DNA of 64,000 nucleotides, taken from NCBI RefSeq assembly GCF_009914755.1, contig NC_060925.1; one strand, 5' to 3'. A program made the translations under genes and the position numbers. Under the pieces are notes generated by a model. It worked only from the letters and a program-made list of their open reading frames with translations. It searched no databases and was not told the DNA's origin. Below are positions 36,435-38,530 of the stretch, piece after piece (the first letter of the stretch is position 1; every line of letters starts with the position of its first letter). Source of the DNA: the human T2T-CHM13v2.0 reference genome, Homo sapiens.

Positions 36435-38114
36435 TAGTTATTTTTAAATGTACAATAAATTATTGTTGACTGTAGTCACTTTGTTTTCCTGTCAAATAAT
36501 AGATCTTATTCATTCTATCTAACTATATTTTTGTACCCATTAAACATCTCCACTTTGCCCCCACTACTCCCGCTACCCTTCTCAACCTATGGTAACTATC
36601 ATTATATTCTCCATCTCCATGAATTAATTGTTTTGTTTTTTTAGCTCCCACAAATGAGTGAGAAGATTGTCTTTTTCTGCCTGTTTTATTTCATTTAACA
36701 TAATGTCTTTTAGTTCTATCTATGTTGTTGCAAATGACAGAATCTCATTCTTTTTTATGGCTGAATAGTACTCCATTGTGTACATGTACCACATTTTCTT
36801 TATCCATTCATCTGTTGATGAACACTTAGGTTGCCTCCAAATCTTGGCTATTGCAAATAGTACCACAGTAAACATAGGAGTGCAGATATCTCTTCAACAT
36901 AGTGACCTCCATTCTTTTGTGAATATACCTAGCAGTGGGATTGCTGGATCATATGGTGGTTCTGTTTTTAATTTTTTGCAGAACTTCTATACTGTTCTTC
37001 ATAGTGGTTGCACTAATTTACATTCCCACTAACAGTGTACAAGAGTTCCCTTTTCTCCACATCCTTGTCAGCATTTGTTATTGCCTATTTTTTGGATAAA
37101 AGCCATTAAAACTTGGGTGAGATGATATCTCATTGTAGTTTTAATTTCCATTTCTCCAGTGATTGATGATGTTGAGCACTTTTTTATATACCTGTTTGAT
37201 ACTTGTATTTCTTCTTTTGAGAAATGTTTATTCAAATCTTTTGCCCATTTTTAAATTGGATTATTAGATTTTTTTTCTATTGAGTTGTTGGAGCTCCTTA
37301 TATATTCCGGTTGTTCATCATTTGTCAGATGAAGTTTGCAAATGTTGTCTTCCATTTTGTAGATTATCTCTTCACTTCGTTGATCATTTCCTTTGCTGTG
37401 AAGAAGCTTTTTAACTTGTTAACTTGATATGATCTCATTTGTCCATTTTTTCTTTGGTTGCTTGTGCTCGTGGGGTATTACTGAAGAAATTTTTGCCCAG
37501 CTTGATGTCTTTGAGAGTTTCCTTAATGTTTTCTTGTGTTAGTTTCATAGTTTGAGGACTTAGATTTAAGCCTTTAGTCCACTTTTACTTGATTTTTATA
37601 TATGTCGAGAGAAAGGGGTCTAGTTTCATTCTTCTGCATATGGATTATTCAGTCTTCCCAGCACCATTTATTGAAGAGACTCTCCTTTCAACAATGTATG
37701 TTCTTGGCATGTTGTCAAAAATGAGTTCAATGTAGATGTATGGATTTACTTCTGGATTCTTTATTCTGTTCCATTGGTCTATGTGTTTCTTTTTATGCCA
37801 GTCCCGTGCTGTTTTGGTTGCAGTAGCTCTGTAGTATAATTTGAAGTCAGGTAATGTGAGTTCTCCAGTTTTGTTCTTTTTGTTTAGGATGGCTTAGGCT
37901 ATTCCAGGTCTTTCATGGGTTCCATCAAAATTTACGATTATTTATTTCTATTTCTGTGAAGAATGAGATTGATACTTTGATTCGGATTACACTGAATCTG
38001 CACATTGCTTTGGACATTTTAACAATATTGATTCTTCTAATCCATGAACATGGAATATCTTTCCATTTTTTGTGACCTCTTCAGTTTCTTTTTTTTTTTT
38101 TTTTTTTTTTTTTT

Positions 38115-38289
38115 GTGAGCCAAATAAACTTCTTTTATTTATAAATTACCATGTCTCAGGTGTTCCTTTACAGCAATTTAAAATGGACTAATACACAAAG
38201 TTAATGCTCTAACAACTTTTGGTTAAATAAATGAATATGAGACTGTAAAGTTATTTTTTAATACCTCCTTTGTTTTAGATGCTGTATTG
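38115..38289 (-). other. L1 3'-transduced genomic segment containing an MST-type LTR end (38115-38195)
   Basis: Non-L1 sequence between two poly(A) tracts and inside the TSDs. AATAAA (tttatt at 38134-38139) lies 19 nt upstream of the distal pure poly(A). Confidence 0.92.
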
Positions 38290-38530
38290 TTTTTTTTTCT
38301 TTTTTTTTTTATTTATTTTTTTTTTATTATACTCTAAGTTTTAGGGTACATGTGCACATTGTGCAGGTTAGTTACATATGTATACATGTGCCATGCTGGT
38401 GCGCTGCACCCACTAACGTGTCATCTAGCATTAGGTATATCTCCCAATGCTATCCCTCCCCCCTCCCCCGACCCCACCACAGTCCCCAGAGTGTGCTATT
38501 CCCCTTCCTGTGTCCAAGTGATCTCATTGT

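What the first reader, a model, noticed from the sequence alone, without database searches (positions are those of the whole stretch)
38076..38330. L1HS carries a ~175-bp 3' transduction that tags its source locus
Seen: inside the 16-bp TSDs the order on the L1 strand is 3'UTR, an interrupted A-tract (38290-38325, the older source tail), 175 bp of unrelated DNA, and a pure 26-nt A-tract (38089-38114, the new tail). Knowledge: this is the signature of read-through past the weak L1 poly(A) signal. Inference: the segment identifies the parental pre-Ta L1 and any siblings. Because this daughter is full length with intact ORFs, it could propagate the tag further.
Basis: partly seen in the sequence, partly recalled or inferred. 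Interest (0 to 1): 0.75.

Follow-up and report, generated by a model that had tools for sequence, protein, structure and literature searches.

The report
L1 carrying a chromosome-3 transduction tag
A full-length human L1 retrotransposon in a RABGAP1L intron carries 175 bases copied from chromosome 3, which marks where its parent L1 once sat (that site is empty in this genome); this is an ordinary, well-understood by-product of L1 copying.

Summary
On the minus strand lie a 6,018-bp L1 (38326-44343, both ORFs open), an interrupted 36-nt A-tract, 175 bp of non-L1 DNA, and a pure 23-26-nt A-tail. Perfect 16-bp target-site duplications enclose all of it.

The 175 bp has one other full-length copy in this assembly, chr3:140570247-140570421. 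That copy has 1 mismatch and lies in the L1's orientation. At chr3 the sequence runs on, without a break, into the rest of a ~420-bp dispersed LTR-like repeat. An AATAAA lies 19-20 nt before the cut point.

No L1 precedes the segment on chr3: CHM13 carries the empty site. No other tag-bearing L1 exists in CHM13.

Best reading (about 0.9): a classical partnered L1 3' transduction from a pre-Ta parent on chr3 that is either polymorphic or lost.

The kind is textbook. I did not find this instance in print, but the tables that could list it could not be read. Interest is low. The only practical twist is that an intact full-length L1 carries a tag that maps to a site with no L1.

The parts
38076..38091 (.). 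Target-site duplication, copy next to the new poly(A) tail (CCTCTTCAGTTTCTTT)
   Evidence: longest exact match between the two junction areas. The 16-mer occurs only at 38076 and 44344 in the window.
38092..38114 (-). New, pure poly(A) tail of this insertion. It is 23 A, or up to 26 if the 3 T of the duplication (38089-38091) are counted.
   Evidence: uninterrupted run of 26 T on the + strand at 38089-38114.
38115..38289 (-). 175-bp transduced segment (tag) derived from chr3:140570247-140570421
   Evidence: one other full-length copy in CHM13, with 1 mismatch (tag position 8, window 38282). Homology stops at both tails.
38134..38139 (-). AATAAA polyadenylation signal used for the read-through transcript, 19-20 nt before the cleavage point (CA at 38115-38114)
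   Evidence: motif scan; chr3 reads ...GGCTCACA/GTTCTG at the break.
38115..38206 (-). Distal part of the tag: antisense end of a dispersed LTR-like repeat. 'MaLR/MST-type' is a name from recall only.
   Evidence: 38 other scored loci match tag positions 82-99 to 172-175 at 83-90% (1746 first-look candidates); at chr3 the repeat continues to about position 486-512.
38207..38289 (-). Proximal, single-copy part of the tag. Its first bases would be the parent's 3' target-site duplication (inferred).
   Evidence: a 90-bp query gave exactly 2 hits in the genome; the first 30 nt occur at 2 places with up to 2 mismatches allowed.
38290..38325 (-). Old, interrupted A-tract (A10 T A3 T A11 G A9), read as a copy of the parent's genomic tail. 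It contains a second AATAAA (38317-38312).
   Evidence: 33 A of 36.
38326..44343 (-). Full-length L1HS body, 6018 bp: 3'UTR 38326-38530, ORF2 38531-42358, ORF1 42422-43438, 5'UTR 43439-44343. The L1's own AATAAA is at 38328-38323.
   Evidence: two open frames of 1275 and 338 aa. (ORF2p aligns 1-1275 to solved L1 ORF2p chains; ORF1p residues 106-335 align to 2yko). (24 other full-length copies align from query position 1-6 to 6017-6018).
38417..38419 (-). ACG trinucleotide in the 3'UTR, the pre-Ta diagnostic
   Evidence: motif found at 38425-38409. (passages of PMC7026601: ACG = pre-Ta, ACA = Ta, GAG = L1PA2 or older).
44344..44359 (.). Target-site duplication, copy at the L1 5' end
37800..38075 (-). 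Host: an older L1 in the same orientation, interrupted by the insertion. The other half starts at 44360.
   Evidence: families D1-D3. 38011-38071 matches L1HS 39910-39970 (82%) and 44343-44401 matches 39975-40033 (76%). The two flanks are therefore collinear to within 1 bp once the insert and one duplication copy are removed.

Best explanation
This is a partnered L1 3' transduction.

A pre-Ta L1 once sat on chromosome 3, in + orientation, immediately before T2T position 140570245-247. Its transcript read through the L1's own AATAAA and through its genomic A-tail. It was then cleaved and polyadenylated 175-178 nt further on, at a CA that follows an AATAAA lying in the antisense end of an LTR.

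That RNA was copied by target-primed reverse transcription into an older L1 in a RABGAP1L intron on chr1. The nick was at ...TTCTTT/CA on the window's + strand. The result is 16-bp target-site duplications, a new pure A-tail and a full-length daughter.

Shown here:
- the anatomy of the insertion;
- the single chr3 origin of the tag;
- the continuity of chr3 across both tag ends;
- the polyadenylation signal;
- the open reading frames.

Inferred:
- that an L1 occupied the chr3 site. CHM13 carries the pre-insertion allele, so the parent is either still polymorphic in people or was lost by drift;
- that the daughter is still mobile.
For: (1) Order on the L1 strand is 3'UTR, interrupted 36-nt A-tract, 175 bp, pure 23-26-nt A-tract. 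All of it lies inside perfect 16-bp duplications.

(2) The tag has exactly one other full-length copy in 3.1 Gb, chr3:140570247-140570421, + strand relative to the L1, at 177 of 178 bases. The single-copy 90 bp and the first 30 nt each occur at only those two places.

(3) At chr3 the block is continuous with unrelated flanks, has no A-tail, and runs on into the same ~420-bp repeat in 8 of 8 other copies compared. So chr3 is the donor and chr1 the recipient.

(4) AATAAA lies 19-20 nt before the break, which falls at CA. Passages of PMC13009371 state that signals sit 10-30 bp upstream of transduction ends.

(5) The old tail has 3 interruptions in 36 nt and the new tail has 0 in 26. This is expected if the old tail was encoded in DNA at the source. 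The difference is not statistically significant (my estimate, p about 0.26).

(6) The host older L1 is collinear across the insertion.

(7) The same layout (poly(A), transduction, second poly(A), duplication) is described for a validated insertion in passages of PMC7026601.
Against: - No L1 lies at the chr3 site in the only genome I could search, so the parent itself was not observed.
- The nearest L1 on chr3 is an older, internally inverted copy that ends 570 bp upstream (93-95% identity). It cannot be the source.
- The inferred nick site at chr3 (bottom strand ...TGTT/GA) is only a loose variant of the TTTTT/AA consensus quoted in PMC7026601.
- No sibling with the tag exists in CHM13.
- Neither 1q25.1 nor 3q22.3 appears in the two source-element tables I could read. 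My cytoband assignment for chr3 rests on a recalled offset between assemblies.
Confidence: 0.9

Rival explanations
1. Template-switch chimera. Reverse transcription started on an unrelated polyadenylated chr3 transcript that ended at the same AATAAA site. It then jumped to the 3' end of an L1 RNA's poly(A) tail and copied the whole L1. Under this reading no L1 ever sat on chr3.
For: - The chr3 site is empty in CHM13.
- The junction at the tag start is a poor endonuclease site.
- Chimeric retrocopies made by template switching are known. This is recalled, not checked here.
Against: - The internal A-tract is interrupted (A10 T A3 T A11 G A9), whereas a freshly added RNA tail should be pure like the distal one.
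- The jump would have to land at the very end of a tail and then copy 6 kb.
- About a quarter of L1 insertions carry ordinary transductions (passages of PMC13009371), so the prior strongly favours read-through.
Confidence: 0.04
2. Two independent events at chr1. The 175 bp plus its A-tail was already there (for example as an orphan transduction or retrocopy), and the L1 later inserted right beside it.
For: Nothing beyond the presence of two A-tracts.
Against: - A single perfect 16-bp duplication encloses L1, old tail, tag and new tail.
- No second duplication flanks the tag: one search lists no repeat that pairs 38280-38300 with the left junction, apart from the T-runs themselves.
- The host older L1 is collinear when the whole composite is removed.
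Confidence: 0.02
3. Reverse direction, or a DNA-level copy. The chr3 segment derives from chr1, or both arose through duplication or gene conversion rather than through RNA.
For: Near-identity of the two copies.
Against: - At chr3 the block sits inside an uninterrupted LTR-like repeat and unique flanks, with no tails or duplications.
- At chr1 it ends exactly at a polyadenylation site and is bounded by A-tracts.
- Homology is limited to 178 bp.
Confidence: 0.01

Closest known systems
L1-mediated 3' transduction (partnered type)
   Same: It shows read-through of the weak L1 poly(A) signal, termination at a downstream AATAAA, two A-tracts, and duplications around the whole composite. The mechanism as described in passages of the T2T repeat preprint 10.1101/2021.07.12.451456, PMC13009371 and PMC7026601 fits point by point. 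The founding LRE2-dystrophin case appears only as a reference-list entry seen.
   Different: Nothing in kind. The only particular is that the donor site holds no L1 in this assembly, so the parent is inferred.
'Proxy elements' of PMC13009371: reference L1s that carry a tag from a source absent from the reference
   Same: This is a reference-genome L1 whose transduced sequence comes from a source that is not present in the same reference (here CHM13). New insertions from the true source, or from this daughter, would map ambiguously to chr3 and chr1 (passages read).
   Different: The published proxies are truncated L1s in GRCh38. This one is full length with both ORFs open, so it could be a source itself. 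I could not check GRCh38.
Chimeric retrocopies formed by reverse-transcriptase template switching (recalled, not read here)
   Same: Two unrelated RNA-derived parts lie inside one pair of duplications.
   Different: Here the junction is an interrupted, genome-like A-tract that follows a complete L1 3'UTR. The distal part is contiguous genomic DNA ending at a poly(A) site. Both fit read-through better.

Membership tests
L1 3' transduction | L1 3'UTR followed by a first A-tract, then non-L1 DNA, then a second poly(A) | tested here: met
   old tail 38290-38325, tag 38115-38289, new tail 38089-38114.
L1 3' transduction | Target-site duplications enclose the L1 plus the extra segment | tested here: met
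   the 16-mer at 38076-38091 and 44344-44359, with only two copies in the window.
L1 3' transduction | The extra segment maps to a distinct genomic locus where it is continuous with its flanks | tested here: met
   chr3:140570247-140570421, 177 of 178 bases, the only other copy. The repeat continues past the tag end.
L1 3' transduction | A polyadenylation signal lies 10-30 nt before the end of the segment at the donor locus | tested here: met
   AATAAA at 38139-38134, with cleavage at CA 19-20 nt later. The 10-30 bp criterion is from passages.
L1 3' transduction | A source L1 lies directly 5' of the segment, in the same orientation, at the donor locus | tested here: inconclusive
   CHM13 has no L1 there (empty allele). 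Other human genomes could not be searched, and sources absent from a reference are documented.
L1 3' transduction | Endonuclease-type target site at the insertion (TTTTT/AA and variants) | tested here: met
   the + strand reads ...AGTTTCTTT/CATCAG at the nick, a T-rich variant. The consensus is quoted from passages.
L1HS pre-Ta subfamily | ACG at the 3'UTR diagnostic trinucleotide (ACA in Ta, GAG in L1PA2 or older) | tested here: met
   the motif with ACG at window 38419-38417. The criterion is from passages.
Intact full-length L1 | About 6 kb with uninterrupted ORF1 (338 aa) and ORF2 (1275 aa) and the reverse-transcriptase FADD motif | tested here: met
   for the open frames. ORF2p aligns end to end with solved ORF2p chains, with 12 differences in the first 1000 residues printed and FADD kept. 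for ORF1p. Retrotransposition activity itself cannot be tested here.
MaLR / MST LTR (distal half of the tag) | Match to the family consensus in a repeat library | not testable with these tools
   No repeat library is on hand. Searches show only that it is a ~420-bp dispersed repeat (72-90% identity between copies). The family name is from recall.
Proxy element (PMC13009371) | A truncated reference L1 that carries a tag from a source absent from the reference | tested here: not met
   The source is absent from CHM13, but the element is full length, not truncated. It behaves like a proxy but does not meet the published definition.

The most novel reading that the evidence does not exclude
The chr3 parent is a pre-Ta source that is uncatalogued and still segregating, or only recently extinct. 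This intact chr1 daughter is then the only reference-genome record of that lineage. The daughter may be an active second-generation source. Its progeny, and those of the parent, would be mis-assigned between chr1 and an apparently L1-free chr3 site in transduction-tracing studies.
Probability: 0.2. Interest if true: 0.35.

Novelty: already known. Interest (0 to 1): 0.15.

Why it matters
The tag gives a firm parent-to-daughter link (chr3 to chr1) for one intact pre-Ta L1. It also shows that the parental allele is missing from CHM13.

In practice, a 30-mer from the single-copy half of the tag could be used to look for the parent, siblings and progeny in pangenomes and tumour call sets. Pipelines that assign transductions to sources should know that this chr3 sequence also lies next to a full-length L1 on chr1.

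Beyond that, it is a textbook example. 3' transductions accompany about a quarter of L1 insertions. They were catalogued for this very assembly, with 183 high-confidence L1 3' events (passages of the preprint).

Tried and rejected

Literature on this instance:
- RABGAP1L with LINE-1 and transduction gave 5 papers. RABGAP1L with L1HS and full-length gave 2.
- The only relevant one (PMC7763009, passages) lists L1Base UID-103 in RABGAP1L at 174,376,771-174,384,818. By my recalled GRCh38 gene start, that lies about 213 kb from this element, so it is probably a different L1.
- '3q22.3' with LINE-1 and 'source element' gave 0 papers.
- A search on coordinate digits returned only noise.

Supplements that could not be read:
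- PMC9311842, PMC13192797 and PMC7026601.
- bioRxiv supplements of the T2T repeat paper are closed. The journal version and Szak 2003 are not held.
- These tables may well list this event.

Supplements that were read:
- PCAWG (file cut when stored): 0 occurrences of '3q22' and 4 of '1q25'. The 2 rows displayed are source 1q25.2.
- MELT: 15 files are held, of which 4 (files 1, 13, 14 and 15) were not searched. There were no coordinate hits.
- Nanopore colorectal-cancer source table: 4 occurrences of '1q25', the 2 displayed being 1q25.2-1 and 1q25.3-1. There were 2 occurrences of '3q22', both 3q22.1-1. There were 0 of '3q23'.

Other checks:
- An Rfam scan of 37600-38800 gave one chance-level match (E 0.71, 15.8 bits against a gathering score of 90).
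- Search for a near-identical sibling L1: the 24 other scored full-length copies differ by 44-51 mismatches in 6018. Only 25 of 10,960 candidates were scored, so closer relatives may exist.
- Dating from the tag was rejected. One mismatch in 178 bp is compatible with anything from zero to several million years (my estimate).

Calls with format errors:
Searches were re-sent corrected as 17 and 43.

Full report
**Observation**

All of the following is read on the minus strand.

- The L1 3'UTR ends at 38326.
- It is followed by a 36-nt A-tract with three interruptions (38325-38290; A10 T A3 T A11 G A9).
- Then come 175 bp that are not L1 (38289-38115).
- Then comes an uninterrupted A-run. It appears as 26 T on the + strand at 38089-38114, of which 3 are shared with the duplication.
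- The 16-mer CCTCTTCAGTTTCTTT sits at 38076-38091 and again at 44344-44359, directly beyond the L1 5' end. These are its only two occurrences in the window. The neighbouring bases differ, so the duplication is exactly 16 bp.

**The L1**

- The body is 6,018 bp (38326-44343).
- It has open frames of 338 aa (42422-43438) and 1275 aa (38531-42358) under the standard code.
- ORF2p aligns over residues 1-1275 with solved L1 ORF2p chains. There are 12 differences in the first 1000 residues printed, and the FADD motif is kept.
- ORF1p residues 106-335 align with chain 2yko.
- The 3'UTR carries ACG at 38419-38417. Passages of PMC7026601 call this diagnostic for pre-Ta, against ACA for Ta and GAG for L1PA2 or older.
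- The 24 other full-length copies scored in CHM13 align from query position 1-6 to 6017-6018 and differ by 44-51 mismatches (99.15-99.27%). Only 25 of 10,960 candidates were scored, so this does not exclude a closer sibling.
- The element lies antisense to RABGAP1L (hub table).
- It is nested in an older L1 of the same orientation. That older L1's two halves are collinear to within 1 bp once the insert is removed (families D1-D3).

**Origin of the 175 bp**

- A whole-assembly search found one other full-length copy, chr3:140570247-140570421. It lies on the strand that matches the L1's orientation and was reported at 99%.
- The other 38 scored matches cover only tag positions 82-99 to 172-175, at 83-90% identity, out of 1746 first-look candidates. 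The distal ~80-92 bp therefore belong to a dispersed repeat.
- The proximal 90 bp occur exactly twice in the genome.
- The first 30 nt occur at exactly two places with up to 2 mismatches allowed. The reversed-pattern control gave none.
- BLAST and MAFFT define a 178-bp block (window 38291-38114) with one mismatch (G in chr1, A in chr3, tag position 8) and unrelated sequence on both sides.

**Direction of transfer**

- At chr3 the block has no A-tracts.
- Its distal repeat continues for about 330 more bases. In 8 of 8 other copies compared, the alignment runs from tag position 84-95 to 486-512 without a break at position 175.
- At chr1 the block stops at a CA, 19-20 nt after an AATAAA (38139-38134), and is followed by the pure tail.
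- So chr3 is the donor, and the end of the tag is a polyadenylation site. This matches the 10-30 bp rule quoted in passages of PMC13009371.
- The read-through transcript passed the L1's own AATAAA (38328-38323), a second AATAAA inside the old tail (38317-38312), and an ATTAAA in the tag (38262-38257).

**The parent**

- In CHM13 no L1 precedes the chr3 block. The sequence upstream is unique DNA.
- The nearest L1 is an older copy with an inverted 5' part at 140568247-140569674 (93-95% identity). It ends 570 bp away.
- CHM13 therefore carries the pre-insertion allele. The parent is inferred: it is either polymorphic in humans or lost.
- The interrupted internal A-tract fits a tail that had resided in DNA at the source. 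The pure distal tail fits a new one. The contrast (3 interruptions in 36 against 0 in 26) is suggestive but not significant.
- The inferred nick at chr3 (...TGTT/GA on the bottom strand) is a loose variant of the consensus. The nick at chr1 (...TTCTTT/CA) is T-rich.
- No other L1 in CHM13 carries any part of the single-copy tag. There are thus no tagged siblings or progeny in this genome.

**Rivals**

- Template switching from a chr3 transcript onto an L1 RNA tail would also leave chr3 empty. It predicts a pure internal tail and is far rarer than read-through.
- Two separate insertions are excluded by the single duplication around the composite and by the collinear host L1.
- A DNA-level copy, or transfer in the reverse direction, is excluded by the tails at chr1 and the unbroken repeat at chr3.

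**Comparison with what is known**

- This is the standard partnered 3' transduction. The mechanism is described in passages of 10.1101/2021.07.12.451456, PMC13009371 and PMC7026601.
- It resembles the 'proxy elements' of PMC13009371, which are reference L1s tagged by a source absent from the reference (passages). It differs in being full length.
- I did not find this instance in print. The readable source tables show 1q25.2, 1q25.3-1 and 3q22.1-1 among the rows displayed, and none at 1q25.1 or 3q22.3.
- The tables most likely to list it could not be read: the CHM13 transduction catalogue, the 3202-genome map, the pangenome L1 catalogue and the PALMER calls.
- The cytoband I give for the chr3 site and the GRCh38 position I give for the chr1 L1 rest on recalled offsets between assemblies.

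**Verdict**

The added results are that the donor is chr3:140570247-140570421 and that it is empty in CHM13. The kind is textbook, and interest is low.

Noticed in passing
window 43446-44047: The RefSeq 'enhancer' feature in the hub table lies entirely inside the L1 5'UTR (43439-44343), which is the element's internal promoter region.
   Followed up: no
window 37800-38075 and 44360-44401: The L1HS is nested in an older L1 of the same orientation, at almost the homologous ORF2 position. The flanks match L1HS 39691-39970 and 39975-40033 at 73-82%.
   Followed up: partly
L013 / L002: G000:C3:140568247-140569674: An older L1 (93-95% identical to the window's L1) has its 3' part on the minus strand and an adjoining earlier ORF2 part on the plus strand. 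This looks like a 5'-inversion layout. It ends 570 bp upstream of the tag origin.
   Followed up: partly
L022 (G000:C9:122962755-122968770), L041 (G000:C4:21140997-21147012), L027 (G000:C20:23485651-23491667): Three of the 24 closest scored full-length L1s show a short non-A stretch between two A-tracts just after the 3'UTR. These are candidate short 3' transductions of about 12-60 bp. Duplications were not checked.
   Followed up: no
outside the window (GRCh38 chr1:174,376,771-174,384,818 as printed in PMC7763009): L1Base UID-103, an intact L1 bound by ORF1p in bladder cancer cells, is also in RABGAP1L on the minus strand. By my recalled gene coordinates it lies about 213 kb from this element, so the gene may hold two intact L1s.
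   Followed up: partly
window 38115-38280: NCBI's masking starts at 38281, so the whole tag is unmasked. Yet its distal ~90 bp are part of a dispersed LTR-like repeat.
   Followed up: yes
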